From a virus: DNA of 64,000 nucleotides. A program made the position numbers and the translations under genes. Every line of letters starts with the position of its first letter. Position 1 is the stretch's first letter. Positions 2,539 through 61,742 of the stretch are shown here, one piece after another. Under the pieces are notes generated by a model. It worked only from the letters and a program-made list of their open reading frames with translations, was not told where the DNA came from and did not search any database. The DNA lies in IMG/VR virus record IMGVR_UViG_3300002026_000020; one strand, written 5' to 3'.

Positions 2539-3534
2539 GTGGAAAACTCTGATAAGCCGAAGATAACTTTTGTATGGATAAACAACATTTACGGGCAATT
2601 GCTCTGTGATGATCCGAGGCTTATGGATGCCGCTATCAAGAGGTTTGCGGTTCCTGTAGAAAACTATTTCTTCATGCCAGCATACAAGTCTGGTCGCTGG
2701 GACGGCAAGATTAGGTTCCTAAACTTCAACGGAACGTTCTATACTGGCATATACCACAGACTTCTGAAATATGTTCAGAATGATGAACTGTATGAGCTTG
2801 TTGTTGACCCAATGTTTCAGAAGTTGACCAATAAAGATAAGGATGCTCTGAAAGAAGACTTCTTCCGTATTACAGAAGAGACATTGGATTCTGGTGTTGT
2901 TCCTTACACCCATCAATACCGTGGAGCATTGAAGTCTCTCTATTTCGAGAGAGGTATATGTGAACACGTTACATCGTCAGGTAAGTCGCTTACTATAAGC
3001 CTTACTATAAATTACCTGTATAACAGCAATAAAGATAACAAGATACTTATCTTAGTTCCTAAGCTTGACCTTGTTGAGCAGTTTGTTGAGAACATGACTG
3101 CGTATGGAATTCCTGAAGACCTTATAGGAAAATACTGTGGGTATCAAAAAGATACTGACCAGCCTTACATAGTATCAACATGGCAGTCTATATACAAGCA
3201 GAAGGATTTCCTGAAAGAGTTTACTATTATGATAGTGGATGAGTGTCTACACCCATCTACACAAATAACAATGGCGGATGGAACCACCAAGCTTATAAAA
3301 GATATAGGTGTTGGTGATATTGTAAAAACTGTAAATGAAACTACAGGAACAGTCGAATATAAACCCGTTGTAAAATTACATTCCAATTTATCAAAGAATA
3401 ACCAAATGTATAAAATAACTACGAGTGACGGTAACACTCTACTTATAACAGGCAATCATAAGGTAATGTTATCGGACGGTAGTTGGAAAAAAGCAGAAGA
3501 TTTAAGTGTTGATGATGATATAAAAAATATATAG
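2539..3534 (+). CDS. uvsW: UvsW SF2 helicase N-terminal half fused to split intein N-fragment
   Basis: FMPAYKSGRWDGKIR, Walker A TSSGKS, STWQS, then DE|CLHPSTQITMADG (intein block A) and TGNH (block B). Confidence 0.92.
   Translation: MENSDKPKITFVWINNIYGQLLCDDPRLMDAAIKRFAVPVENYFFMPAYKSGRWDGKIRFLNFNGTFYTGIYHRLLKYVQNDELYELVVDPMFQKLTNKDKDALKEDFFRITEETLDSGVVPYTHQYRGALKSLYFERGICEHVTSSGKSLTISLTINYLYNSNKDNKILILVPKLDLVEQFVENMTAYGIPEDLIGKYCGYQKDTDQPYIVSTWQSIYKQKDFLKEFTIMIVDECLHPSTQITMADGTTKLIKDIGVGDIVKTVNETTGTVEYKPVVKLHSNLSKNNQMYKITTSDGNTLLITGNHKVMLSDGSWKKAEDLSVDDDIKNI
3244..3531 (+). mobile_element. Split intein N-fragment (96 aa)
   Basis: Starts at Cys of CLHPST, contains TxxH block B, ends at TAG 3532-3534. 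Confidence 0.9.
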
Positions 3535-4415
3535 TGTCATGGTCTAAAAGGCATATAAATACATATATGAAACCTATAATACAATCAGCATACGATTCAA
3601 TAAGAATTGAAAATTACAATAAAGAAGATTTATATCGTATACTGAAGTCGGAATCGCTGCGGTGGTCGCAAAACTTACATAAGTGGTTTTTAGACCGTAA
3701 TTTAGGAAGTATATATGAATGTATTTTTGGTAATATTATACATAAAAATACTTCACCATCAATAAGTAAAATAATGTATGATTTTTGTATAGGGCAAAAA
3801 TACTGTAAAATATGTGGAATGGAGTCTAAGTATTTTACATTCACCGAAGGATACTGTCATACTTGTGGTAACGAGACTTGTTATAATAAGTTAAATTCTA
3901 AATTGCGGTGCGGGGATAAAAATCCATGTCATAAGATGACAGATTTTACTAAGAAGGAAGCGGCTCGTAAACAGTCTGTAAAAATAAAAGCTAAGATTCT
4001 TGATGGTAGTTTTACGCCTTGCATTACTAACAGTTGGGCTAATAGTAGATGTAAAATAAAAATAGAAGGCAATTGCGAATATTTATTTAGAAGCACCTGG
4101 GAGGCTATGTTTTGGATATTGACTGGATATGAATATGAAAAAGTGCGTATACAATACAAAGACCTCGGTGGTATATCTCATACATATATAGTTGATTTTG
4201 TTGATTATAAAACACATACACTATACGAAATAAAACCTTCAAAATTAGTAGATAATAGTATCAATAAAATAAAAATGAAATATGCTAAAAGTTGGTGTAG
4301 AAAAAACGGATATAATATAGTTATTATAGACGAACACTACCTCAAGCAGTATAAAGATAGAATACTATCAATGACAACCGATCCAAAAATTATAAAAGCA
4401 ATAGAAAAGTTATGA
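3534..4415 (+). CDS. Free-standing endonuclease (TnsA-N-like PD-(D/E)xK) between the split-intein halves
   Basis: FRSTWE..YEYE..HTYIVDF..LYEIKP motif; CxxC pairs; AT-rich; overlaps both neighbours by 1-4 nt. Confidence 0.75.
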   Translation: MSWSKRHINTYMKPIIQSAYDSIRIENYNKEDLYRILKSESLRWSQNLHKWFLDRNLGSIYECIFGNIIHKNTSPSISKIMYDFCIGQKYCKICGMESKYFTFTEGYCHTCGNETCYNKLNSKLRCGDKNPCHKMTDFTKKEAARKQSVKIKAKILDGSFTPCITNSWANSRCKIKIEGNCEYLFRSTWEAMFWILTGYEYEKVRIQYKDLGGISHTYIVDFVDYKTHTLYEIKPSKLVDNSINKIKMKYAKSWCRKNGYNIVIIDEHYLKQYKDRILSMTTDPKIIKAIEKL

Positions 4416-4516
4416 AAATTACAAAGATAGAAAAAATAGATTACACCGACGACGTTTATAATTTACATATAGAAGATAACCATAATTACTTTGCGAATGG
4501 CATATGTGTCTCAAAC
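4412..4516 (+). mobile_element. Split intein C-fragment (35 aa)
   Basis: Block F/G, terminal Asn followed by Cys+1 at 4517. Confidence 0.9.
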
Positions 4517-5287
4517 TGTCACGGACTAAAGGCTGATGTGGTTAGGTCGGTTGCTGAGAAGATGACCAACGCAACCATCCGCTTAGGCTTCACCGGAACC
4601 ATGCCAGAGGCTAAAGCGGACTTTATGTTGGTTGAAGGGGTTCTCGGACCAATCATCGACAAAGTTGGCTACACGGAGCTTCAGGACGCAAAGCAGATAT
4701 CAGACATATCGGTTCGCATAGTCAATATTCTTTACTCAAAAGAGGTTGTAGAACAGAATGCTGTGAGTGACTATGCTCAAGAGAAAGATTTCATTGAGAG
4801 CGATCCATACCGTAATCGTGTCATATGTAAGATAGCGCAGGAATACACCAAGGCAGACAAAAATGTTCTCATTCTGGTCAAGAAGATTGACCACACTGAA
4901 ACCATGAAGAACATTCTTGAGAAGCTTGGTATGAAGGTGTGTGTTGTTACTGGTGAGACTAAGATTGAAGAGCGTAATAAGGCTCGCCATGATATGGAGA
5001 AGTCGGGTGGTAACGTTATTGTCGCTACTGTTGGAGTTTACTCGACGGGTGTTTCTATAAACAGACTTCACACCGTTATATTCGCTTCCGCTGGTAAGAG
5101 TAAGATACAAACTCTCCAGTCAGTTGGTCGTGGATTGCGTCTCCACAACACAAAAGACAAACTGCACCTGTATGATATCTGTGAGAACCTACGTTTCTCA
5201 GAACAGCATTCCAAGAAGAGAATAAAATACTACAAGGATAACAACTTCGACTTCGTAGTTAGAGATGTGGTGGTGAAGAGTGCCTAA
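4412..5287 (+). CDS. uvsW: Split intein C-fragment fused to UvsW C-terminal half
   Basis: MKITKIEK..VYNLHIEDNHNYFANGICVSN|CHG, then GFTGT, STGVSI and QSVGRGLR helicase motifs. Confidence 0.92.
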   Translation: MKITKIEKIDYTDDVYNLHIEDNHNYFANGICVSNCHGLKADVVRSVAEKMTNATIRLGFTGTMPEAKADFMLVEGVLGPIIDKVGYTELQDAKQISDISVRIVNILYSKEVVEQNAVSDYAQEKDFIESDPYRNRVICKIAQEYTKADKNVLILVKKIDHTETMKNILEKLGMKVCVVTGETKIEERNKARHDMEKSGGNVIVATVGVYSTGVSINRLHTVIFASAGKSKIQTLQSVGRGLRLHNTKDKLHLYDICENLRFSEQHSKKRIKYYKDNNFDFVVRDVVVKSA

Positions 5288-6764
5288 GTTTCGCAATACA
5301 ACGTCACGGGAAATAGGTCTACTACATCAAGGTCGTAAGATAAGTATTCCTCCAGGGGCTATTGTTGACGGACCTGACCACTTCAAGATGTATAAAGGTC
5401 TATCTGTAGTTACCGACGCTGATGTTGAAAAGTATAGGCGGATACTTCCTAAAGTTGTTCAAAATAACCCCGCTTCACCATTGAAAAGGTTTATAAAACC
5501 AAACGAGAGCCTTATGGATTCGACAAATATAGAAAGCATCCAATACCATCCTAAAAATGTTGATAATACATTTGAGGCTGTTCAGTTTATTTCCGAATAT
5601 GATAAAAAGGGAACTTTGACTGTAACTATTTGTATTGATGGAACTCGTGAGAATGTGAAAAACTTTATTCTAAATGTCGGCTCCAAAACTAAACACCCAA
5701 GCATAGAGTTTCTTTGGGTAAATCCAGAGCCGGATAGTGAACTAAAGACTATTGATGAAAATGTCATTCATAAGCTTACAAACAGATACATTCTAAGACA
5801 CTCAGCAGACTTGCTTATCGTAGACGATTACATCCGTGCGTTTGTTAAGTATGGCTGCACAAATAAAGTCAAGCTACCGAAGCCAGTTGTATTGGAAGAG
5901 TTGAGCCACAACTATGTAAAGAATAAGATACTCAACAACTACTTTACAAAGAAGACTGTTGACATATCCATAGTAACCCTTTCTCATAACGTAGGGCAAT
6001 ACTATAACTTGTTAGAGGATTTGAAGAACCAGCGAACCAAGGCTACATTTGAAGTTATAGCAATACCAAACTATAACAAAGAGTTTAGCAGTTGTGCTGA
6101 AGCATTGAATTACGGCAGAGATATATCCGATGGTAGTGTTGTTATTTTATGCCATCAAGACCTAAGAGTTCCTGAAGGGTGGGTTCATGGTATTATGAGT
6201 CATGTTTCTTACTTCGAGAGTAAGAATATACCGTGGGGTGTTCTTGGAATGGCTGGATGCTTCAAGAATAGCCCAGCGTCAACACCTGACCAAGATATCT
6301 GTATCATTTATTTGTCTGACAAGGTTCCAGATGGAAGAACCTACGCCCAGGCGTATCGTCAAATGTTCGGTCCTCGCAAGGAGGTTCAGACGGTTGATGA
6401 GTTATGTCTTATAGTTCCCAAGACGGCACCGTTTAGCTTCGATGAAACTATGCTTGACCATTTCCATTGGTATGGTGCTGATATATGTATGGATGCTCTG
6501 TCTAAAGGATATAGGAACTTCGCTATAGACGCCGAGTGTATCCATTTGTCAGACGGTAGAAGTAACTTATCGGGCGGTCACGCAGCTAAGTTTGTCGAGG
6601 ATGCCCGTAAGATATGGTGGAAGTGGAGTAGTCGCTTCCCATATTTCAGAACAACAACGGCGACCTTTATGTTCAAAGAAAAAGTTATAATATTCGGTAT
6701 CTTTATACTTATAAACAGGGGCAATGGTAATAACAACTTGCCGGAAATGATAAAGATGAATTGA
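5280..6764 (+). CDS. Glycosyltransferase (GT-A fold C-terminal domain) with unknown N-terminal region
   Basis: AEALNYG..ILCHQD..GVLGMAG..VQTVDE..FDE..FHWYGADIC motifs. Confidence 0.75.
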   Translation: MPKFRNTTSREIGLLHQGRKISIPPGAIVDGPDHFKMYKGLSVVTDADVEKYRRILPKVVQNNPASPLKRFIKPNESLMDSTNIESIQYHPKNVDNTFEAVQFISEYDKKGTLTVTICIDGTRENVKNFILNVGSKTKHPSIEFLWVNPEPDSELKTIDENVIHKLTNRYILRHSADLLIVDDYIRAFVKYGCTNKVKLPKPVVLEELSHNYVKNKILNNYFTKKTVDISIVTLSHNVGQYYNLLEDLKNQRTKATFEVIAIPNYNKEFSSCAEALNYGRDISDGSVVILCHQDLRVPEGWVHGIMSHVSYFESKNIPWGVLGMAGCFKNSPASTPDQDICIIYLSDKVPDGRTYAQAYRQMFGPRKEVQTVDELCLIVPKTAPFSFDETMLDHFHWYGADICMDALSKGYRNFAIDAECIHLSDGRSNLSGGHAAKFVEDARKIWWKWSSRFPYFRTTTATFMFKEKVIIFGIFILINRGNGNNNLPEMIKMN

Positions 6765-7190
6765 CAAATTCACATAACACGGTCTAATGTATCAAAAGGG
6801 TTTCCTAAGTTAGTCCTCACCCACCAAAAAGGACAGCAGTTGTTAGAGGCGCAAGGTAGCATATCTTGACAGCGCAGATAACACTCCCGACGAAAGAGGG
6901 GGAGAAGAGAAAACAAAGATATGACGGTAAACCATATGTCACCCCAGCCGTAAAATGGGCGATGTTACGCGAACATCATGACACATACTTTCAGAAAACC
7001 AGATGTGAGTCTGTATAGGTGAAATATGTATATGCAGTATTTTTATGCAGTAAGAGGAAATAGCTAATATCTATTGATACTATTTTTATACTTACTTAAA
7101 CTAACTTATAAGATTATATGAAGTAGCTTATAGTAGCTTATAGCTACTCCGCCCAGGTGGCACCCCAATCAATACATTATGAGATGAAAC

Positions 7191-16205: not shown

Positions 16206-17600
16206 ATGTCAGACAAAACCGAGCTTTATATTCTGAACGCTATTCTTAGCGATCCGAATTTTGCAAATAAGTATCTTGATAAGTTGGAGGCGAAGTTCTT
16301 CGACGCTCCAACTGCAAGAGTCATCCAATGCTGCAAGAAGTTTTATCTTGTATATCATAGAACACCAACAACGGAGCAGCTTGTCAAGACTCTGCTTCCG
16401 AAGTTGGTGAAGGAAGACACTGTAAAGTTGGAAGAGTCTATTGATTCCATTCAGGAGTGTCGCCAGCTTGAAATGAAGGAAGACTCTGCACAGTGGATTG
16501 AAGACGAAGTAAAGTCTTTCGTCAAGATGCAGAGAATCAAGAACGCTCTTATGGGATGTATTGAGCTTCTTGATAAGGGCGACCCTGACGCCGCAGCAAA
16601 TCTCGTCTTGAAGGCAAGTGAAATCCACTTTGATGAAGACCTTGGTCTTGACTACTTCGAAGACCTTGAACAGCGTATGCACGAGTTACGCAATCCAGCC
16701 CAGGTTATACCTACAGGTCACGAAAAGCTTGACTTGGCTATTGGTGGAGGCTGGCGTCCAAAGTCACTTATCATATTCGGAGCAGCTACAAACGTCGGTA
16801 AGACCCTTATTCTTGGTCATACAGCGTTCAAGCTCATAGAACAGGGCATGGATGGGTTATATGTGACCCTTGAAATCAACCAGAACATCCTTGCTAATAG
16901 AATTGACGCCAACCTTTCCGATATATCCATGGGTGATCTTTCCAGTAATGTTGACGAGTTGATGGGAAGAATCCTTCAGAAGAAGAAGGAACGTGAACAG
17001 ATGAGTAAGGAAGATCCAGGCGTAAAGCCGTTTGGAAGACTTATCATCAAGGAATGCCCTCCAGGCTATCTGAATGCTAACGGATTGAATGCTCTTCTCA
17101 AGGAGCTTCAGTTGAAGCGTGGATTCCGCCCTAAGTTCATTTGTGTTGACTATATTGGTCTTATGGTTCCGAATGGCAAGGCATTCTCAGACAACTCCTA
17201 CGGTAAGATGAAGACCATCACCGAAGAGTTGCGAGCAGTCGGTGTTATAAACAACATTCCTATCTTCTCAGCAGTTCAGGTAAACCGTGAAGGCTACAAT
17301 ACCACTCATATCGGTATTGAAAAGACTTCCGACTCCATGGGTATCGCTCATGGTGCTGATTTGATGATAATGGTTAGCCGTGATGAAGGCGGCGATCAAG
17401 AAAACAAGATGTACTGGAACGTAGCGAAGTCACGCTGGTCGAGAAACGGTCAGAGCTTCATTATGTCAGTAGATTATGACCACATGAGGTTAGTCGATGA
17501 AGAACAATCAACAAACGAGGCGCAGACGAAATCTGTTCTAAATGCTATCAATGAGTATAAAGACAGGGCGGCTGCTCAACCCAAGGGGAACAAGCCATGA
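16206..17600 (+). CDS. 41: gp41 DnaB-like replicative helicase
   Basis: ATNVGKT, YVTLE, VDYIGLM, AVQVNREG, SDSMG, KSR. Confidence 0.93.
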   Translation: MSDKTELYILNAILSDPNFANKYLDKLEAKFFDAPTARVIQCCKKFYLVYHRTPTTEQLVKTLLPKLVKEDTVKLEESIDSIQECRQLEMKEDSAQWIEDEVKSFVKMQRIKNALMGCIELLDKGDPDAAANLVLKASEIHFDEDLGLDYFEDLEQRMHELRNPAQVIPTGHEKLDLAIGGGWRPKSLIIFGAATNVGKTLILGHTAFKLIEQGMDGLYVTLEINQNILANRIDANLSDISMGDLSSNVDELMGRILQKKKEREQMSKEDPGVKPFGRLIIKECPPGYLNANGLNALLKELQLKRGFRPKFICVDYIGLMVPNGKAFSDNSYGKMKTITEELRAVGVINNIPIFSAVQVNREGYNTTHIGIEKTSDSMGIAHGADLMIMVSRDEGGDQENKMYWNVAKSRWSRNGQSFIMSVDYDHMRLVDEEQSTNEAQTKSVLNAINEYKDRAAAQPKGNKP

Positions 17601-17872
17601 GAGTAGCAAAGCCAGATCAACTCACATACGAAGAGATAGCAACGCTTTATAACATATCACCAAATAAAGTTCATGCCATTGTCAAGTCAGGTTACAACAA
17701 GATGGTAAATCATTGTGTAACTAAGCTCAACATGAATATATTTGATGCTGTCATGGCGCTTCGCAAGCAAATGAATATGTCAGAAAAGGAAGCGTTTGAT
17801 AAACTGGATGATGAGAATAAAATAAAGATCAAAGAAGAAGCATTCCACCGCATGCGAGAGAAAGAGGGCTAA
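17597..17872 (+). CDS. Small HTH protein (sigma region 4-like)
   Basis: LTYEEIATLYNISPNKVHAIVKSG resembles the sigma-4 HTH. Confidence 0.55.
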   Translation: MRVAKPDQLTYEEIATLYNISPNKVHAIVKSGYNKMVNHCVTKLNMNIFDAVMALRKQMNMSEKEAFDKLDDENKIKIKEEAFHRMREKEG

Positions 17873-18618: not shown

Positions 18619-18990
18619 TCACAATACTCATGGGAATATCCAAGTGCCGCCGATACAACTCCGGAGGCTCCTAAGTGGGAAAATGAAAAGTTTAGAACTC
18701 TATTGACAGTGGTGAACGCTGCATCAAAGTCTTTAGACACTTCGAACTACAAGATAGTAGCTTCCGCCGCTGTTGTATGCGCCCTCCAGTCTATAGAAGA
18801 TTTTGTTATGAATAAGAAGGTTAGAACTCTATCAGACGGCAAGCAATCAGTTGGGCGGATAGGTAAGTATAAGGTTATAAGAGATATAACTGCTATAAAG
18901 GATTACCTACAAGTATATCGTGGAAACAAGATGGTGGAAGTTGAAATAAAAAACCTAAGTTACTCATCCGTTGGAGGAATGTTCAAATGA
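18616..18990 (+). CDS. Small protein resembling an internal segment of major capsid protein gp23
   Basis: KWENEKFRTLL / KIVASAAVVCAL / GRIGKYKVIRD..KDYLQV parallel, in order, gp23 motifs recalled as RWAGESFKALL / FIIASRNVV / GGKYRVYID..QDYFTV. Confidence 0.5.
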   Translation: MSQYSWEYPSAADTTPEAPKWENEKFRTLLTVVNAASKSLDTSNYKIVASAAVVCALQSIEDFVMNKKVRTLSDGKQSVGRIGKYKVIRDITAIKDYLQVYRGNKMVEVEIKNLSYSSVGGMFK

Positions 18991-19373
18991 AACCCACAGA
19001 CTACATCAAAAAAGCTATCCGCACCGAAGTCGGTGAATACCAGTTCGCTATTCTCAAGTCTGAGAAGCATTGGGTTCCGCCCCGTGTAGAACATGCAGCC
19101 ATGGGACTCGTTACTGAGGCTGGTGAGGTTATGGATGCGCTCAAGAAGACCAAGATTTACGGCAAGCCGTTTGATGCCGTCAATATGAAGGAAGAAATCG
19201 GAGATGTGTTCTGGTATCTTGCCATCATGTGTGACGAACTTGGCATTTCATTTGAGGAAGTTTGGGAGAAGAATATAGCCAAGCTCGCCAAGCGTTACCC
19301 TGAGAAGTTCACGGAAGAACTAGCCCTAAACAGAGACACTGACGGTGAGCGCAAGGTGCTTGAGGGAAAGTAA
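18987..19373 (+). CDS. MazG-like nucleotide pyrophosphohydrolase
   Basis: GLVTEAGEVMD..KEEIGDVFWY..NIAKLAKRYP. Confidence 0.88.
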   Translation: MKPTDYIKKAIRTEVGEYQFAILKSEKHWVPPRVEHAAMGLVTEAGEVMDALKKTKIYGKPFDAVNMKEEIGDVFWYLAIMCDELGISFEEVWEKNIAKLAKRYPEKFTEELALNRDTDGERKVLEGK

Positions 19374-54989: not shown

Positions 54990-57236
54990 ATGTCTATACG
55001 CGCCCTCATGGAATACACACGTTACGCTAAATACAGCCGTTTCGTACCGGAACTCAAAAGAAGAGAAACGTGGGACGAACAGGTTGACAGAGTATTCGAG
55101 ATGCATGAAAAGAAGTATGCGGATAAGATTGAATCCATAAGAGAAGATTTTGAGTTTGCAAAGCAGATGGTAAAGCGTAAGCGTGTTCTCGGCTCGCAGA
55201 GAGCCTTGCAGTTTGGTGGTAAGCCAATCCTTGACAAGAATGCGAAGCTCTATAACTGTACCGTAAGTTATGTTGATCGCCCTCGTTTCTTCCAAGAGTG
55301 CATGTATCTACTTCTTTGTGGTTGTGGAACCGGCTTTTCCGTCCAGACGCACCATGTAGCCAAGTTGAGCGACATTGCAACCAGAACCAAGGCTGAGAAG
55401 ACATATGTTGTTCCTGACTCCATTGAGGGCTGGGCTGACGCTATTGGTGTTCTCGTCTCTTCATACTTCACAGGCGAAGTTCCTTTCCCCGACTATCAAG
55501 GGCATAAGGTAAAGTTCGACTTCAGCAAGATTCGTCCAGCAGGCGCTCCCCTTTCATGGGGTGGCAAGGCTCCAGGCGCTAAGGGCTTGACACAATCCAT
55601 TGAGAAGATGGCAAGTGTTTTTGATGTAACCCTTGCAACCGGATCGAAGCGTCTTCGCTCCATCGACGCATACGATCTTATCATGCACGCATCCGATGCG
55701 GTGCTTAGTGGTGGTATTCGCCGCAGCGCAACCATTTGCATATTCTCGGCTAATGACACCGAAATGGTAAATGCTAAGACTGGTGACTGGTTCATCAAGA
55801 ACCCGCAGCGTGGACGCTCCAACAACTCGGCTCTGCTCATTCGTGAGAAGACTTCCCGTGAAGACTTCGAGAAGCTGATGAAGTCGGTGCGTGAATTCGG
55901 TGAGCCTGGATTTATTTGGAGTGACAACGAAGAAGCTCTGTATAATCCATGCGTAGAAATCGGCATGCGTGCCTATGACGAGAAGGGCAACTCTGGCTGG
56001 CAGTTCTGCAACCTCTGTGAAATCAACATGAAGAAGTGCAAGACGGAAGAGGAATTCCTCAATGTCTGCCGTGCAGCCGCTATTCTCGGAACCATGCAGG
56101 CTGGTTACGATAAGTTTGATTATCTTGGTCCAGTCACCGAAGCCATCGTTCGTCGTGAAGCCCTTCTCGGCTGCTCTATGACAGGCATGATGGATTCGCC
56201 AGAAATAGCTTTCGATCCAGCCATTCAGAAGAAGGGCGCAAAGCTTATTCTCAAGGTGAACGAAGAGATAGCCGCCAAGCTCGGTGTCAACAAGTGTGCA
56301 AGAGCTACCTGTGTCAAGCCTGCTGGAAGCACAAGCTGCTTGCTCGGCTCGGCAAGTGGAATCCACCCACACCACGCTCGTCGCTACTTCCGCCGTGTTC
56401 AGGCTAATGTCAATGAAACTCCACTCAAGTATTTCCAGGCTCACAATCCAAGAGCCGTTGAGAAGTCTGTGTGGAGCGCAACTGGAACTGACATGTCAAT
56501 CGTATTCCTATGCGAAGTTCCCGAAGGAGCCAAGCTCAAGAATCAGATGAACGCTGTCGAGCTTCTTGAGCATGTGCGTCTCACCCAGCAGAATTGGGTT
56601 GAGTATGGCACCCGTGATGATGCGGTAGTCGCTTCATGGCTCCGTCACAATGTTTCCAACACCATCACCGTTCGTGATGATGAATGGGATGATGTAACCA
56701 AGTTCATTTACAACAACCGCAAGTGGTTCGCAGGAATCTCCTTGCTGCCTATGTCGGGCGACTTGGATTACCCGCAGGCTCCGTTCTGCTGCGTCTTGGA
56801 GCCAAAAGAAATAATGGCTCAGTATGGCGAGGGGGCTTTGTTTGCTTCGGGGCTTATCGTTGACGGCTTGAAGGCTTTCGATGATAACCTATGGGCAGCG
56901 TGTGACTCGGCTCTCGGCATAGGTGAGAAGCTTGAGTTGACAGACGAGCAAAAGAAGCTAACCAACGGCAAGCTGAAGGCAGTTGTTGACAAGCTCACCA
57001 TCAAGGAAGATTGGGTACGCCGCTTCCAGCAGTTCGCAGATAGATACTGCGGTGGGGATAAGCGTAGATGCTCACACCTTCTCAAGCATGTCACCAACTA
57101 TAAGCTGTGGGTTGACTTGAAGCGTGAGTACCAAGAGGTTGATTGGAGTCTATGCATGGAAGATGACTTCAAGATTGATGTAACTACAATAGCTGGAGCA
57201 GCTTGCAGCGGTCCAAACGGCTGCGAGATGAAGTGA
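54990..57236 (+). CDS. nrdJ: Class II (B12-dependent) ribonucleotide reductase
   Basis: RRETW, NC, GCGTG, IRRSA, NPCVEI, CNLCE, TCVKPAGS, C-terminal CSGPNGC; no beta subunit nearby. Confidence 0.9.
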   Translation: MSIRALMEYTRYAKYSRFVPELKRRETWDEQVDRVFEMHEKKYADKIESIREDFEFAKQMVKRKRVLGSQRALQFGGKPILDKNAKLYNCTVSYVDRPRFFQECMYLLLCGCGTGFSVQTHHVAKLSDIATRTKAEKTYVVPDSIEGWADAIGVLVSSYFTGEVPFPDYQGHKVKFDFSKIRPAGAPLSWGGKAPGAKGLTQSIEKMASVFDVTLATGSKRLRSIDAYDLIMHASDAVLSGGIRRSATICIFSANDTEMVNAKTGDWFIKNPQRGRSNNSALLIREKTSREDFEKLMKSVREFGEPGFIWSDNEEALYNPCVEIGMRAYDEKGNSGWQFCNLCEINMKKCKTEEEFLNVCRAAAILGTMQAGYDKFDYLGPVTEAIVRREALLGCSMTGMMDSPEIAFDPAIQKKGAKLILKVNEEIAAKLGVNKCARATCVKPAGSTSCLLGSASGIHPHHARRYFRRVQANVNETPLKYFQAHNPRAVEKSVWSATGTDMSIVFLCEVPEGAKLKNQMNAVELLEHVRLTQQNWVEYGTRDDAVVASWLRHNVSNTITVRDDEWDDVTKFIYNNRKWFAGISLLPMSGDLDYPQAPFCCVLEPKEIMAQYGEGALFASGLIVDGLKAFDDNLWAACDSALGIGEKLELTDEQKKLTNGKLKAVVDKLTIKEDWVRRFQQFADRYCGGDKRRCSHLLKHVTNYKLWVDLKREYQEVDWSLCMEDDFKIDVTTIAGAACSGPNGCEMK

Positions 57237-57572: not shown

Positions 57573-57646
57573 GCCGGTGTCGTATAACGGAAATACGAAA
57601 CATTGCCAATGTTTAGATAGGGTTTCGACTACCCTCACTGGCTCCA
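57573..57646 (+). tRNA. tRNA-Gly(GCC)
   Basis: AAACA-TTGCCAA-TGTTT; encoded CCA, U73. Confidence 0.85.
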
Positions 57647-58028: not shown

Positions 58029-58114
58029 ACGAGGATAGGTCGCTCTTATCAGATTCGGGAGGAATCCTTCGACGAGGATAGGTCGCTCTTATCAGATTCG
58101 GGAGGAATCCTTCG
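58029..58114 (+). repeat. Perfect 43-bp tandem duplication inside a CCA-ended RNA-like element
   Basis: acgaggataggtcgctcttatcagattcgggaggaatccttcg x2. Confidence 0.9.
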
Positions 58115-58186
58115 CCTAAAGCGGAGGGGAATCGCCATGCGTAGGTTTGTAGGCACGCTTCCAATAAAGAAAGCAACCTTCACCAT

Positions 58187-58277
58187 GCGTCCGTGCGTTG
58201 AGTGGCTGAAAACCTCCGACTCTTAATCGGAATGAGTTTATCTCACATCGTAGGTTCGAATCCTACCGGACGCACCA
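58187..58277 (+). tRNA. tRNA-Lys(CTT) with long variable arm
   Basis: TCCGA-CTCTTAA-TCGGA; V-arm TGAG-TTTAT-CTCA; CCA. Confidence 0.85.
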
Positions 58278-58314: not shown

Positions 58315-58405
58315 GCATCCGTGCGTTGAGTGGCTGAAAACCCCCGCCTTTTAAGCGGACGAGACTTGTTCTCCATCGTAGGTTCGAATCCTACCGGATG
58401 CACCA
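58315..58405 (+). tRNA. tRNA-Lys(TTT) with long variable arm
   Basis: CCGC-CTTTTAA-GCGG; paralog of the preceding tRNA; CCA. Confidence 0.85.
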
Positions 58406-59374: not shown

Positions 59375-59472
59375 GCTGCTTTAGCTCAGTTGGTAGAGCA
59401 ATAGTTTTGGTTGACTGAAATCAACTTCCAGTAAACTATAGGTCGTCTGTTCAAGTCAGACAAGCAGCACCA
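59375..59472 (+). tRNA. tRNA-Thr (TGT after removal of a 22-nt insertion in the anticodon loop)
   Basis: Perfect acceptor, D and T arms; ATAGT/ACTAT stem encloses 29 nt rather than 7. Confidence 0.75.
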
Positions 59473-60110: not shown

Positions 60111-60644
60111 ATGACAGAAAATCATAGAAAGCTAGTTGAAGCAAATTGTATTCATTGTAATAAAATAATACTAACCAGACCGGATAGAGTAAAAAAGTTT
60201 TGCTCAAAACTATGTAAAAAAATACATAGAAATGTTGAAGTGAAATGCACCAATTGTGGTAAATTAACTCTAAAGAAAAAATCGGCTCTTGCCAATTCAA
60301 AACATGAAATATATTTTTGTAGTAGAGAGTGTAAAGATTTCGCTCAAAGTATCAAGGGTGGTTGTGAGATAATAAGACCTTCTCACTATGGAAATGGTGG
60401 TTTACATTTTTACAAAAGCCTAATAAATAAAACTGACAATCCTAAATGTTGCGATTGTGGTGAAACAAAAAGATATACATTATGTGTTCATCATATAGAT
60501 AGTGATCGTGAAAATAATTCAGTAGATAATTTAGAAATAGTTTGTGCAAATTGTCACATGAAAAGACATCTAAAACTTATAGATGGTGAGTGGCAATATG
60601 GCGCAAAGTATCTTACACCAAGAGAAGATTTAAAAATCATATAA
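60111..60644 (+). CDS. HNH homing endonuclease in tRNA array
   Basis: Repeated CxxC/FCS motifs; VHHIDSDRENN..NLEIVCANCH. Confidence 0.88.
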   Translation: MTENHRKLVEANCIHCNKIILTRPDRVKKFCSKLCKKIHRNVEVKCTNCGKLTLKKKSALANSKHEIYFCSRECKDFAQSIKGGCEIIRPSHYGNGGLHFYKSLINKTDNPKCCDCGETKRYTLCVHHIDSDRENNSVDNLEIVCANCHMKRHLKLIDGEWQYGAKYLTPREDLKII

Positions 60645-60645
60645 T

Positions 60646-60721
60646 GGGGGCACATGTACCTCGCAGGCGAACCGCACTTGCAATGCAGTTGTGATGGGTT
60701 GAATCCCCATTGTCTCCACCA
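60646..60721 (+). tRNA. tRNA-Ala(TGC), atypical D-arm
   Basis: G3-U70, GCA-CTTGCAA-TGC, A73-CCA. Confidence 0.75.
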
Positions 60722-60722
60722 T

Positions 60723-61037
60723 TTTTCAGTAGAAGCAAATCGTAAGGTACGGCATACATAAACAAATAAGGGTATGCTGGGAGCGGCGACACCAAGCCAG
60801 GGTCTATGCAATAGGCAACACTACATTCAATATAGTAGTTGTGTAAATAAAAACACTAAAGTCACTTTACGGTGGGAAGCCTTAGTGGGTGTGGAGAAAA
60901 TCTCCTTTATTGAGCCTAAAAACTCTAAGCCCTATGGTTGTACTTTGTCGTGACGAGGGTAATCCCATAGGGGAATATCCCAAGTTTAGGCTTCGAACAG
61001 CGGTGTCCACGCGACCAACCCGGCTGACTGAAAACCA
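60723..61037 (+). ncRNA. ~315-nt structured RNA, possibly RNase P RNA-like
   Basis: TTTTCAGT/ACTGAAAA closing stem + CCA; AGCC(A)GGGT/ACCCGGCT long-range helix. Confidence 0.45.
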
Positions 61038-61252
61038 TTTAGGTGTGTAGTATGTGTCGTATAAATGTGTTTGGCGATGCTCAGTCGTTTCATCCTGCTT
61101 GTTTGGATGGGCGGCACCACAATGGACACAGCGATGTAAACCAAACACTGCGCCAGTAAGTACGCAGGGCTACCAGCCCTCGAAGAGTAGAGTATGTGCG
61201 CCTCTATCGCTTACGCTTCGGGGTTTGTTCCCGAAAGTCACACCCAAACCCA
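61038..61252 (+). ncRNA. Unknown structured RNA, copy A
   Basis: Closing stem TTTAGGTGTG/CACACCCAAA; motifs shared with copy B. Confidence 0.65.
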
Positions 61253-61464
61253 TTTTTGTTTACCATGTGTGTCGTATAATGTTCTGTGCGAAGTCCGGCG
61301 AAATGACCATCACGGCTCCTGTGAGTCGATAAAGGGTGGTCATCTACCCTCAAAATGTAATAAAGACACAGTAAGCATAGAACAGCGCAGCCAGTACAGC
61401 GGTACTTTTAATTCCGTAGGAGTAGAGTATGTGCGCCTCTATCACAAGGCATGGTAAACAAAAA
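61253..61464 (+). ncRNA. Unknown structured RNA, copy B
   Basis: 15-bp closing stem TTTTTGTTTACCATG/CATGGTAAACAAAAA; motifs shared with copy A. Confidence 0.65.
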
Positions 61465-61471
61465 CATTCAT

Positions 61472-61603
61472 GTGGTGGTCGTAATAATGAAACGAAGTAA
61501 AGACTGTTATCTAAGTAAGTCTTGAAGAAACCGTTTCGTGGAAGTTACAATACGCGGCAATGCAATCGCTGAGATGCTGGTTCGAGTCCAGCCCACCACT
61601 CCA
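61472..61603 (+). tRNA. tRNA-Cys(GCA)-like with ~55-60-nt hairpin insertion in the D-arm
   Basis: GTGGTGG/CCACCAC acceptor, U73-CCA, perfect T-arm, loop ATGCAAT. Confidence 0.6.
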
Positions 61604-61742
61604 TTACAGTGTATCACACGCCTGTCAACTTGACTGGCATGGTGGGAAAAATAAGTATTGATAAATAAAAATACCCTCTACAATAGAGGCATGAGCAACG
61701 AAAGAAGCTCGGTTGACAAATATATATGAGTAGCTTGAATAT

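What the first reader, a model, noticed from the sequence alone, without database searches (positions are those of the whole stretch)
61038..61464. Two tandem paralogs of an unrecognised double-pseudoknot RNA with built-in covariation
Seen: two ~210-nt units, each closed by its own terminal stem. They share TGTGTCGTATAA (61053, 61268), GACACAG (61125, 61365), a GCGC (~61150, ~61385) and an identical 24-mer GAGTAGAGTATGTGCGCCTCTATC (61185-61208, 61420-61443). The helix after TATAA has different sequence but keeps pairing (GTGTTTGG/CCAAACAC versus GTTCTGTGC/GCATAGAAC). TGTGTC can pair with GACACA inside that helix's loop, and the TAGAG/CTCTA hairpin loop (..TGCGC) can pair with the upstream GCGC, giving two pseudoknots. 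Inference: a conserved tertiary fold (ribozyme, ligand-binding or decoy RNA) processed from the tRNA transcript. It matches no family I recognise.
Basis: partly seen in the sequence, partly recalled or inferred. Interest (0 to 1): 0.8.

Follow-up and report, generated by a model that had tools for sequence, protein, structure and literature searches.

The report
tRNA-shaped RNAs with giant D-loop
The two tandem ~210-nt repeats are real, conserved structured RNAs, but rather than an unknown double pseudoknot they are tRNA-shaped cloverleaves without anticodon loop or CCA end, carrying a ~95-nt branched insert in the D-loop and clamped by an outer stem, in the tRNA array of an uncultured T4-like phage; their function is unknown.

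Summary
Both units, the shared blocks and the co-varying helices are at the stated coordinates, and no Rfam family matches.

I found six more copies in four related uncultured T4-like phage contigs. Copy number at this one locus is 0, 1 or 2.

- **Acceptor-like stem:** the 7 nt before the invariant TCGTATAR pair with the 7 nt right after the 24-mer hairpin. All 7 pairs co-vary.
- **D arm:** TC matches U8/N9. GTAT pairs with GTRC as a D stem, flanked by A14, R15 and A21.
- **Other arms:** a 5-bp stem with a 3-5-nt loop sits where the anticodon arm would. The 24-mer hairpin sits where the T arm would.
- **Outer stem:** P1 clamps both ends.

A covariance model built only from the units matches 19 of 23 tRNAs in a relative's array and 7 of 8 T4 tRNAs.

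Pseudoknot 2 (GYGC with the hairpin loop) survives as a plausible D-loop/T-loop "elbow".

The units cannot decode: no anticodon loop, no T-loop consensus, no CCA. The closest analogues are T4 RNA C/D, whose roles are unknown, and bacterial Y RNAs. This is a new tRNA-like family of unknown function; a tRNA-mimic role is only inferred.

The parts
61038..61248 (+). Unit A: the complete tRNA-like RNA, from outer stem P1 to P1'
   Evidence: Orthologues are L013 6530-6745, L028 ~18655-18862, L020 16205-16418 and L032 16313-16525.
61038..61047 (+). Unit A outer stem P1, 5' strand (TTTAGGTGTG). It pairs with 61239-61248 (CACACCCAAA).
   Evidence: The orthologues use GGATATG/CATATCC instead, so the stem is kept by compensatory changes.
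61050..61056 (+). Unit A acceptor-like stem, 5' strand (GTATGTG). It pairs with 61208-61214 (CGCTTAC), 6 of 7 pairs.
   Evidence: All 7 columns show changes on both sides across the 8 copies.
61057..61064 (+). Unit A invariant TCGTATAA, read as U8, N9, the D-stem 5' strand GTAT (61059-61062), A14 and R15
   Evidence: TCGTATAR is present in 8 of 8 copies. The same bases occupy positions 8-15 of the array's own tRNA-Gly at 57573.
61067..61148 (+). Unit A P2 domain. P2 is GTGTTTGG 61067-74 with CCAAACAC 61141-48. Inside are P2a (TGCT/AGCG) and a hairpin with loop CCUGCUUGUUUGG. The whole domain is an insert in the D-loop.
   Evidence: In P2, 8 of 9 pairs changed on both sides; in P2a, 3 of 4.
61150..61153 (+).
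   Evidence: The pairings seen are GCGC:GCGC, GUGC:GCGC (L013) and GUGC:GCAU (L020B, L032B).
61159..61163 (+). Unit A A21 followed by the D-stem 3' strand GTAC
   Evidence: AGTRC is present in 8 of 8 copies. The R position varies A/G opposite an invariant U, a one-sided change only.
61166..61180 (+). Unit A P3, in the anticodon-arm position: AGGGC / loop UACCA / GCCCT. There is no 7-nt anticodon loop.
   Evidence: 4 of 5 pairs changed on both sides.
61187..61207 (+). Unit A P4, in the T-arm position: GTAGAG / 9-nt loop UAUGUGCGC / CTCTAT.
   Evidence: 4 of 6 pairs changed on both sides. The loop is invariant in 6 of 8 copies.
61216..61237 (+). Unit A P5 hairpin (CTTCGGG / GUUUGUU / CCCGAAAG), lying between the acceptor-like 3' strand and P1'. 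Found only in A-type copies.
61253..61464 (+). Unit B: P1 61253-67 with 61450-64 (15 bp); acceptor-like TGTG 61268-71 with CACA 61443-46; TCGTATAA 61272-79; P2 61280-89 with 61375-84; GCGC 61385-88; AGTAC 61393-97; P4 61422-42.

Best explanation
Each unit is a tRNA-derived, tRNA-shaped non-coding RNA gene, transcribed on the + strand together with the phage's tRNA array.

Its core is a cloverleaf of tRNA dimensions:
- a 7-bp acceptor-like stem;
- 2 nt (UC);
- a 4-bp D stem flanked by A14, R15 and A21;
- 2 nt (a tRNA has 1 here);
- a 5-bp stem where the anticodon stem would be;
- a ~6-nt variable region;
- a 6-bp T-like stem that abuts the acceptor-like 3' strand.

Three things are changed relative to a tRNA:
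- The D-loop carries a ~95-nt branched domain (P2, P2a, hairpins).
- The anticodon loop is shrunk to 3-5 nt.
- The T-loop is a 9-nt UAUGUGCGC. It can form four Watson-Crick or wobble pairs with a GYGC in the D-loop, replacing the usual G18/G19-T-loop elbow.

The 5' and 3' ends are further clamped by an outer stem P1, with an extra hairpin P5 in A-type copies. No CCA follows the acceptor-like 3' strand, which runs on into P5/P1, so it has no free 3' end.

Shown: the helices and their covariation, the tRNA-like geometry, and the restriction to one phage clade with 0, 1 or 2 copies.

Inferred:
- The RNA is cut out of the polycistronic tRNA transcript at the A/U-rich junctions (AAAC/CAUUU).
- P1 protects its ends.
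- It accumulates as a stable RNA that cannot be charged or decode.
- It acts through its tRNA-like body, as a mimic or competitor for a factor that recognises tRNA shape rather than the anticodon. The variable P2 domain would be an appended module.
For: Homologues:
- A gapped-pattern scan of metagenome contigs found an orthologue in L013.
- Contigs encoding close RNR relatives gave further copies in L020, L028 and L032, and an empty site in L034.

Acceptor-like stem (fixed offsets, so no alignment freedom):
- winA GTATGTG/CGCTTAC, 6 of 7 pairs.
- L013A GCGGTTG/CAATTGT, 7 of 7.
- L028A ATGATAT/ATATTGT, 7 of 7.
- L020A and L032A GTGATTG/CTTTCAT, 5 of 7.
- winB TGTG/CACA and B' GATG/CGTC, 4 contiguous pairs each.

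Pair counts on 8 copies:
- 91.3% of cells paired, against 31-50% when the 3' partners are slid.
- 26 of 39 pairs changed on both sides, against 4-11 when slid.
- 0 of 500 shuffles reach the observed values.
- All 7 acceptor-like pairs co-vary.
- RNAalifold on its own recovers Acc, P2, P2a, P3 and P4.

Held-out test: adding the acceptor-like and D stems to the model raised the scores of the two B' copies, which were not in the training set, from 15.6/15.3 to 26.3/22.2 bits. Their ends fell exactly where predicted.

tRNA shape: model R2, built only from the units and run with filters off, matches:
- 19 of 23 ARAGORN tRNAs of the L032 array;
- 7 of 8 T4 tRNAs.
The matches are end to end (1-165 of 165 model positions). 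On L032 they share the ARAGORN start to within one base; on T4 they fall within a few bases of the annotated ends. They are on the tRNA strand, and in the alignments printed for L032 the P2 domain is skipped. With P2 removed the cores are 76-83 nt.

Strand: I count 37 G.U cells in the table. These would be A/C mismatches on the other strand.

Transcription: there is no sigma-70 promoter-like or terminator-like site on the + strand within the units.
Against:
- The D stem and the D-loop/T-loop contact show only one-sided changes (A/G opposite U; C-G to U.G to U-A). They are consistent with pairing but not proven.
- The alignment used for the counts was fitted to the model, which favours the structure.
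- The eight copies come from only five related contigs. L020A/L032A and L020B/L032B are near-duplicates.
- In winB and the B' copies the acceptor-like stem is only 4 contiguous pairs. winB's P3 is weak.
- The cloverleaf lies 3.7-13 kcal/mol above the unconstrained MFE. In that script the D-stem 3' partner was mis-assigned for L013A and L020B.
- Nothing tested bears on what the RNA binds. The mimic or decoy role is inference only.
- Copy number of 0 in L034 shows the RNA is dispensable for the array.
Confidence: 0.7

Rival explanations
1. Processing punctuation. The tRNA-like fold is only a handle for host tRNA-processing enzymes (RNase P at the 5' end of the acceptor-like stem, RNase E at the A/U-rich junctions). 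It would separate or stabilise neighbouring RNAs of the array, namely the ~315-nt element upstream and the D-insert tRNA-like gene downstream. The excised unit itself would have no trans function.
For: - A 7-bp acceptor-like stem stacked on a 6-bp T-like stem resembles the minihelix that RNase P measures. M. smegmatis YrlA, which has a 7-bp acceptor-like stem, is cut by RNase P RNA (PMC4201824).
- The units lie between two other non-coding RNAs.
- There is no promoter or terminator of their own.
Against: - The L034 locus works with no unit at all, and L013 and L028 have one. Neighbours therefore do not need it.
- The strongest conservation is in loops that a mere processing handle would not need: the invariant UAUGUGCGC, the GYGC, and the P2b loop.
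- The outer stem P1 buries the would-be RNase P site in a continuous helix in B-type copies.
Confidence: 0.15
2. Decaying or selfish tandem duplicates of a tRNA gene. An old tRNA, or the neighbouring D-insert tRNA-like gene, was duplicated by recombination at the short AAAC-CATTT junction repeats, possibly helped by the nearby homing endonucleases. It is drifting without function.
For: - Copy number varies 0/1/2 at a single locus.
- Every unit is bounded by similar short repeats (AAAACCATTT / AAACCCATTT / AAAAACATTC), and the empty site keeps one copy, AAAAACATTT.
- HNH and GIY-YIG genes lie in the array.
Against: - A pseudogene would not keep six helices through compensatory double changes (26 of 39 pairs). 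It also would not keep loops invariant while the stems turn over.
- winA and winB have diverged almost everywhere except in the structure-defining blocks.
- The terminal inverted repeats differ between copies, which does not fit a transposase-recognised element.
Confidence: 0.1
3. DNA-level signals: the shared blocks are promoter or terminator elements. GTATAAT/GTATAAA would be a -10 or T4-type late promoter TATAAATA, and the hairpins would be terminators. Alternatively they are protein-binding palindromes.
For: TCGTATAAT contains a perfect TATAAT. winA and the B' copies read TATAAAT, 7 of 8 of the T4 late-promoter consensus (my own knowledge of that consensus).
Against: - The consensus scan places no sigma-70-like promoter and no + strand terminator in the units. 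Promoter-like sites are not enriched over shuffles.
- The motif varies as TATAAA/TATAAT/TATAGT, which fits A14-R15-N rather than a promoter.
- Abundant G.U pairs and strand-specific covariation point to RNA.
Confidence: 0.03

Closest known systems
Canonical tRNA (Rfam RF00005)
   Same: - Cloverleaf topology and helix lengths: 7-bp closing stem, 2-nt linker, 4-bp D stem, 5-bp third stem, T-position stem abutting the acceptor 3' strand.
- U8, A14, R15 and A21 equivalents are present.
- The D stem GUAU/GUAC is identical to that of an array tRNA-Glu.
- The units lie in a tRNA array on the tRNA strand.
- A model of the units finds real tRNAs.
   Different: - ~95-nt branched insert in the D-loop.
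- 3-5-nt loop instead of a 7-nt anticodon loop.
- 9-nt UAUGUGCGC instead of the UUCRANY T-loop.
- No G18/G19.
- No free 3' end or CCA, because the ends are extended by P1 (and P5).
- Not found by ARAGORN or by the Rfam tRNA model.
Phage T4 small stable RNAs RNA C (species 1) and RNA D (species 2)
   Same: - Two tandem non-tRNA stable RNAs inside the tRNA gene cluster of a T4-type phage that also holds a GIY-YIG homing endonuclease.
- Their roles are still unknown (PMC3014915, PMC9697503).
- Read directly, T4 RNA C also looks like a tRNA with an expanded D region: acceptor CGAUUCG/CGUUUCG, a canonical T arm, an AGUAG/CUACU stem and a ~78-nt D region (my own reading, not tested).
   Different: - No sequence or covariance-model similarity.
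- T4 RNA C keeps a canonical T-loop and free ends, and RNA D ends in CCA.
- The units have a non-canonical T-like loop, an outer clamp stem and no CCA.
Bacterial and phage Y RNAs of the YrlA type
   Same: A modular RNA made of a terminal stem formed by the 5' and 3' ends plus a tRNA-like domain that lacks a working anticodon loop. Some are RNase P substrates (PMC4201824).
   Different: - YrlA genes lie next to a Ro60/Rsr gene and keep canonical T- and D-loop residues.
- As I recall the YrlA fold (the passages read do not state it), its terminal stem occupies the anticodon-arm position. Here it extends the acceptor-like stem.
- The P1 sequence is not conserved, so there is no conserved Ro-binding site.
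- No TROVE/Rsr domain in the 39 window ORFs scanned.
- No Rfam YrlA hit.
Neighbouring tRNA-like gene with a hairpin in the D arm (window 61472-61603)
   Same: Same array and same idea, a structured insert in the D-loop of a cloverleaf. Its L032 counterpart is weakly matched end to end by the unit model (6.1 bits, E about 0.6).
   Different: It keeps a canonical T arm (GGTTCGAGTCC), a free acceptor end with CCA and a larger anticodon-position loop. Its insert is ~60 nt and unrelated in sequence.

Membership tests
tRNA (RF00005) | 7-bp acceptor stem closing a four-way cloverleaf with tRNA helix lengths | tested here: met
   The unit model aligns end to end with real tRNAs.
tRNA (RF00005) | D stem with U8, A14, R15 and A21 | tested here: inconclusive
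   TCGTATAR and AGTRC are present in 8 of 8 copies and can pair, but only one-sided changes are seen.
tRNA (RF00005) | 7-nt anticodon loop on a 5-bp stem | tested here: not met
   The stem is 5 bp, but the loop is 3-6 nt (UACCA, UACUC, UUACAG, AAC and others).
tRNA (RF00005) | 7-nt T-loop (UUCRANY) and D-loop G18/G19 | tested here: not met
   The loop is UAUGUGCGC or UUUUGCAUC (9 nt). The D-loop carries GYGC and a 95-nt insert.
tRNA (RF00005) | Free 3' end with discriminator and CCA (encoded in the other tRNAs of this array) | tested here: not met
   The acceptor-like 3' strand is followed by GCTT, CTCT, CTGT, CATG or GAAT and continues into P5/P1.
tRNA (RF00005) | Detection by the Rfam tRNA model at gathering score, or by ARAGORN | tested here: not met
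   No hit over the units at the gathering score or at E<=10. ARAGORN finds none, even after deleting P2.
YrlA / bacterial Y RNA | Encoded next to a Ro60/Rsr (TROVE) gene | tested here: not met
   No TROVE domain in the 39 window ORFs scanned. The rest of the genome is not held.
YrlA / bacterial Y RNA | Match to the Rfam Y RNA / YrlA models; canonical T- and D-loop residues | tested here: not met
T4 RNA C / RNA D | Sequence or structural-profile similarity to T4 rnaC/rnaD | tested here: not met
   R1 and R2, run on the T4 tRNA region with filters off, give no meaningful match over rnaC or rnaD.
T4 RNA C / RNA D | Stable small RNA accumulating during infection | not testable with these tools
The phage is uncultured.
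tmRNA | tRNA-like domain with T-loop and CCA plus a tag reading frame; detected by ARAGORN | tested here: not met
   ARAGORN reports no tmRNA. The T-like loop is non-canonical and no CCA follows the acceptor-like strand. A tag reading frame was not looked for separately.

The most novel reading that the evidence does not exclude
A phage-made tRNA-shaped decoy. The clamped, uncharged, anticodon-less cloverleaf would titrate a host factor that recognises the tRNA body. That factor could be a tRNA-sensing or tRNA-cleaving defence protein, or a tRNA-processing or modifying enzyme. The fast-evolving P2 domain would tune the target, and the 0/1/2 copy number would reflect an arms race.
Probability: 0.15. 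Interest if true: 0.8.

Novelty: new variant of a known kind. Interest (0 to 1): 0.55.

Why it matters
Phage tRNA clusters have been known since the 1970s (from my own knowledge) to encode extra stable RNAs. T4 RNA C and D are the classic case, and their roles are still unknown. This finding adds a second, unrelated family in T4-like phages and gives it a resolved, covariation-supported architecture.

The architecture is an unusual remodelling of a tRNA:
- a large domain grafted into the D-loop;
- a Watson-Crick substitute for the elbow;
- both ends locked by an extra stem.

It gives a concrete set of testable predictions (RNase P site, elbow pairing, stable ~200-nt product).

If a binding partner is found, it would bear on how phages use tRNA mimicry. 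That question is topical because many anti-phage systems target tRNAs.

The family is so far confined to one narrow clade of uncultured phages, and its function is not shown.

Tried and rejected
Database searches that found nothing:
- Rfam at gathering score and at E<=10: nothing over the units.
- blastn of 60640-61740 against INPHARED phages: no match.
- Exact 20-mer and a gapped pattern in IMG/VR: 0 hits.
- RNR-anchored IMG/VR loci L001-L011: no copy by blastn, motif search or CM. The whole 214-kb record of L001 (79% RNR identity) also has none.
- Relatives at 74-84% RNR identity (L021-L026) have none in the stretches held.

Metagenome pattern scan: 6 hits, of which 5 were chance matches in unrelated sequence and 1 (L013) was real.

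Readings rejected:
A "best partner anywhere" script for it was too permissive to be informative.
- My first idea that GUAAGU/GCUUAC (the MFE of unit A) closes a sub-domain. It is not conserved in L013.
- A MITE-like element. The terminal inverted repeats differ between copies while the interior is conserved.
- Promoter or terminator signals.
- Homology to T4 rnaC/rnaD.
- A Y RNA with Ro60: no TROVE domain found.

Other negative or failed steps:
- ARAGORN on P2-deleted cores: no tRNA.
- The genome search on five handles failed once.
- No whole genome is held for the window.
- L035 and L036 were fetched but end before the array.

Full report
**Context**

The window is part of an uncultured T4-like phage.
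- Its proteins include UvsY, an intein-split UvsW, gp46/47-like proteins, family B DNA polymerase, a RecA-family (UvsX-like) recombinase, a gp41-like helicase, gp32 and a gp44-like clamp loader. There is also a class II ribonucleotide reductase (RNR) at 54990-57236.
- From 57573 to the end of the window runs a large + strand tRNA array. It holds 17 ARAGORN tRNAs, many with encoded CCA, plus several non-canonical ones.
- The array is interrupted by two HNH genes and one GIY-YIG homing-endonuclease gene.
- No whole genome is held.
- The finding lies between a non-canonical tRNA-Cys-like gene (60645-60717) followed by a ~315-nt conserved non-coding stretch, and a tRNA-like gene with a hairpin in its D arm (61472-61603).

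**Checking the observation**

- The 24-mer occurs exactly twice in 64 kb even with three mismatches allowed; none are expected.
- TGTGTCGTATAA occurs at 61053 and 61268. A one-mismatch copy forms the 5' part of tRNA-Gly at 57573.
- The helix after TATAA (P2) is in register in a plain pairwise alignment, with three pairs changed on both sides.
- Each unit has its own closing stem. In unit B it is a perfect 15 bp.
- Rfam gives nothing over the units at gathering score or at E<=10.
- Unit B folds much better than shuffles (z = -3.8). Unit A does not (z = -0.5).

**Finding relatives**

- INPHARED phages and IMG/VR hold no copy.
- A gapped pattern scanned over metagenome contigs gave one true orthologue, L013.
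- RNR relatives from the protein collection led to more contigs:
  - L018 is the same phage as the window.
  - L020 and L032 (RNR about 92% identical) each have two units.
  - L028 and L013 (also held as L029 and L030) have one.
  - L034, from the same 90% RNR cluster, has none.
- In L034 the ~315-nt element runs straight into the D-insert tRNA-like gene, across a single AAAAACATTT. That motif recurs at every unit boundary in the other phages.
- Relatives at 84% RNR identity or less, the whole 214-kb record of L001, and the T4 tRNA region have no copy.
- The family therefore has eight copies in five contigs, of three types:
  - A: winA, L013A, L028A, L020A, L032A.
  - B: winB.
  - B': L020B, L032B.

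**What the homologues show**

*Pseudoknot 1 fails.*
- The TGTGTC strand becomes GTTGTC, ATTGTC, ATATTC or GATGTC. The homologous interior site does not compensate, and L020A and L032A have no GACA there at all.
- Instead, the 7 nt immediately before the invariant TCGTATAR pair with the 7 nt immediately after the 24-mer hairpin. These are fixed offsets, so no alignment freedom is involved:
  - winA GTATGTG/CGCTTAC, 6 of 7 pairs.
  - L013A GCGGTTG/CAATTGT, 7 of 7.
  - L028A ATGATAT/ATATTGT, 7 of 7.
  - L020A and L032A GTGATTG/CTTTCAT, 5 of 7.
  - winB TGTG/CACA and B' GATG/CGTC, 4 contiguous pairs each.

*The rest then falls into a tRNA plan.*
- TC is U8 and N9.
- GTAT pairs with a conserved GTRC that is preceded by an invariant A (A21).
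- The two bases after GTAT are A and R (A14, R15).
- P2 and everything inside it is an insert in the D-loop.
- A 5-bp stem with a 3-6-nt loop (P3) stands in the anticodon-arm position.
- About six bases stand for the variable region.
- The 24-mer hairpin (P4: 6 bp, 9-nt loop) stands for the T arm and abuts the acceptor-like 3' strand.
It reads GCGC:GCGC in six copies, GUGC:GCGC in L013A and GUGC:GCAU in the B' copies. One position thus runs C-G, U.G, U-A.
- Outside the cloverleaf, P1 clamps the ends in four unrelated sequence versions, all paired. A-type copies add a hairpin P5 with a GYUUGUU-like loop.

**Tests of the model**

1. *Pair counts on the eight copies.*
   - 91.3% of cells are paired, against 31-50% when the 3' partners are slid by 1-3 columns.
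   - 26 of 39 pairs carry changes on both sides, against 4-11 when slid.
   - None of 500 shuffles reaches the observed values.
   - All seven acceptor-like pairs co-vary. So do 8 of 9 in P2, 3 of 4 in P2a, 4 of 5 in P3 and 4 of 6 in P4.
   - The D stem and the elbow contact show only one-sided changes.
   - Caveat: the alignment was fitted to the model, and several copies are close relatives.
2. *RNAalifold*, run by itself on that alignment, recovers Acc, P2, P2a, P3 and P4.
3. *Held-out copies.*
   - Model R1, which has no acceptor-like or D stems, scored the B' copies at 15.6 and 15.3 bits.
   - Model R2, which has them, scored the B' copies at 26.3 and 22.2 bits, with ends exactly at the predicted acceptor-like stem.
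4. *Real tRNAs.*
   - R2 was built only from the units and was run with filters off.
   - It matches 19 of the 23 ARAGORN tRNAs of the L032 array and 7 of the 8 T4 tRNAs.
   - All matches cover the whole model (positions 1-165) and lie on the tRNA strand. On L032 they share the ARAGORN start; on T4 they fall within a few bases of the annotated ends.
   - The alignments printed for L032 skip the 94-position D-loop insert.
   - One array tRNA-Glu even shares the D stem GUAU/GUAC.
5. *Size.* With P2 deleted the cores are 76-83 nt, which is tRNA size. ARAGORN calls none of them a tRNA.
6. *Strand.* I count 37 G.U cells in the table. This places the RNA on the + strand.
7. *Transcription signals.* No sigma-70 promoter-like or + strand terminator-like site lies in the units.
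8. *Energy.* The cloverleaf lies 3.7-13 kcal/mol above the unconstrained MFE, without counting tertiary contacts. The D-stem 3' partner was mis-assigned for L013A and L020B in that script.

**What it is**

It is a family of tRNA-derived, tRNA-shaped RNAs that cannot act as tRNAs. There is no 7-nt anticodon loop, no T-loop consensus, no G18/G19 and no CCA or free 3' end. It fails every tRNA membership test except the cloverleaf geometry.

**How it most likely works**

These steps are inferred, not shown.
- The units are co-transcribed with the tRNAs.
- They are cut out at the A/U-rich single-stranded junctions and protected by P1.
- They accumulate as stable RNAs of about 205-215 nt.
- They act through the tRNA-like body, as a mimic or competitor for something that recognises tRNA shape. 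P2 is the variable module.

I put about 0.85 on the structural identity. I put only about 0.2-0.3 on any specific mimic or decoy function.

Rivals:
- A pure processing handle. The empty site in L034 and the invariant loops argue against it.
- Drifting duplicates. The compensatory changes argue against it.
- DNA-level signals. The scan, the motif variation and the G.U pairs argue against it.

**Comparison with known RNAs**

*T4 RNA C and RNA D* are the nearest analogue.
- They are two tandem stable RNAs at the end of the T4 tRNA cluster, beside the GIY-YIG gene segB.
- Their roles are still unknown (PMC3014915 and PMC9697503).
- Read directly, T4 RNA C also looks like a tRNA with an expanded D region (my reading, untested).
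- There is no sequence or profile similarity to the units.

*Bacterial YrlA Y RNAs* also combine a terminal stem with a tRNA-like module.
- They lie next to Ro60 genes and keep canonical T- and D-loops (PMC4201824).
- As I recall the YrlA fold (not stated in the passages read), the terminal stem sits at the anticodon-arm position rather than extending the acceptor stem.
- No TROVE protein was found in the 39 ORFs scanned here.

*A survey of viral structured RNAs* notes that unrecognised tRNA-like structures are common in phages (PMC10690425). I did not find this family described.

**Verdict**

- The thing is a new family of tRNA-like RNA, a new variant of a known kind.
- Interest is moderate. 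The architecture is unusual and now testable. However, the family is confined to a narrow clade, expression is unverified and function is unknown.

Noticed in passing
window 61472-61603; also L013 ~6761-6892, L028 ~18873-19000, L034 ~6390-6522, L032 16709-16835: A tRNA-like gene with a perfect acceptor stem, canonical T arm and CCA, but with a ~60-nt nested hairpin in the D-loop. It is conserved in all relatives, while its anticodon-position loop differs between phages. The unit model matches its L032 copy weakly (6.1 bits).
   Followed up: partly
window 60718-61037: A ~315-nt non-coding stretch between the tRNA-Cys-like gene and unit A. It is conserved in L013, L020, L028, L032 and L034, with a constant 3' end (..CCAACC..GACTGAAAA). 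It has no Rfam match and is probably another structured RNA.
   Followed up: no
window 60645-60717: A non-canonical tRNA with CCA and a GCA anticodon-like loop. ARAGORN and Rfam miss it here, but ARAGORN calls its counterparts tRNA-Ala(tgc) in L028 and L034.
   Followed up: no
L034 6385-6395 versus window 61030-61470: Copy number of the unit is 0 (L034), 1 (L013, L028) or 2 (window, L020, L032) at the same locus. Every boundary carries an AAAC(C)CATTT-like short repeat, and the empty site keeps one copy.
   Followed up: yes
window 58187-58277 and 58315-58405: Two 91-nt tRNA-Lys genes with a long extra arm. The orthologous tRNA-Lys genes in L013, L020 and L028 are 75 nt.
   Followed up: no
window 59375-59472: ARAGORN calls a 98-nt tRNA with a four-base anticodon (tggt). 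The same call appears in L028 at 17581-17678. It probably has a short insert in the anticodon loop.
   Followed up: no
window 58040-58125: A roughly 40-nt stretch that begins CGAGGATAGGTCGCTCTTATCAG is repeated twice in tandem between tRNA-Tyr and tRNA-Lys.
   Followed up: no
window 2539-5287: The UvsW-type helicase is split by an intein (Hint / Intein_splicing domains). The intein carries a TnsA-like endonuclease domain.
   Followed up: no
L032 13728-13805, 14959-15038, 20792-20862: Further + strand matches of the unit model that ARAGORN does not call as tRNAs. They are likely additional non-canonical tRNA-like genes in the relative's array.
   Followed up: no
L001 16870-16942, L021 13725-13799, L023 17092-17164: The arrays of more distant relatives encode a CUA-anticodon (amber suppressor-type) tRNA, which ARAGORN labels Pyl.
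   Followed up: no
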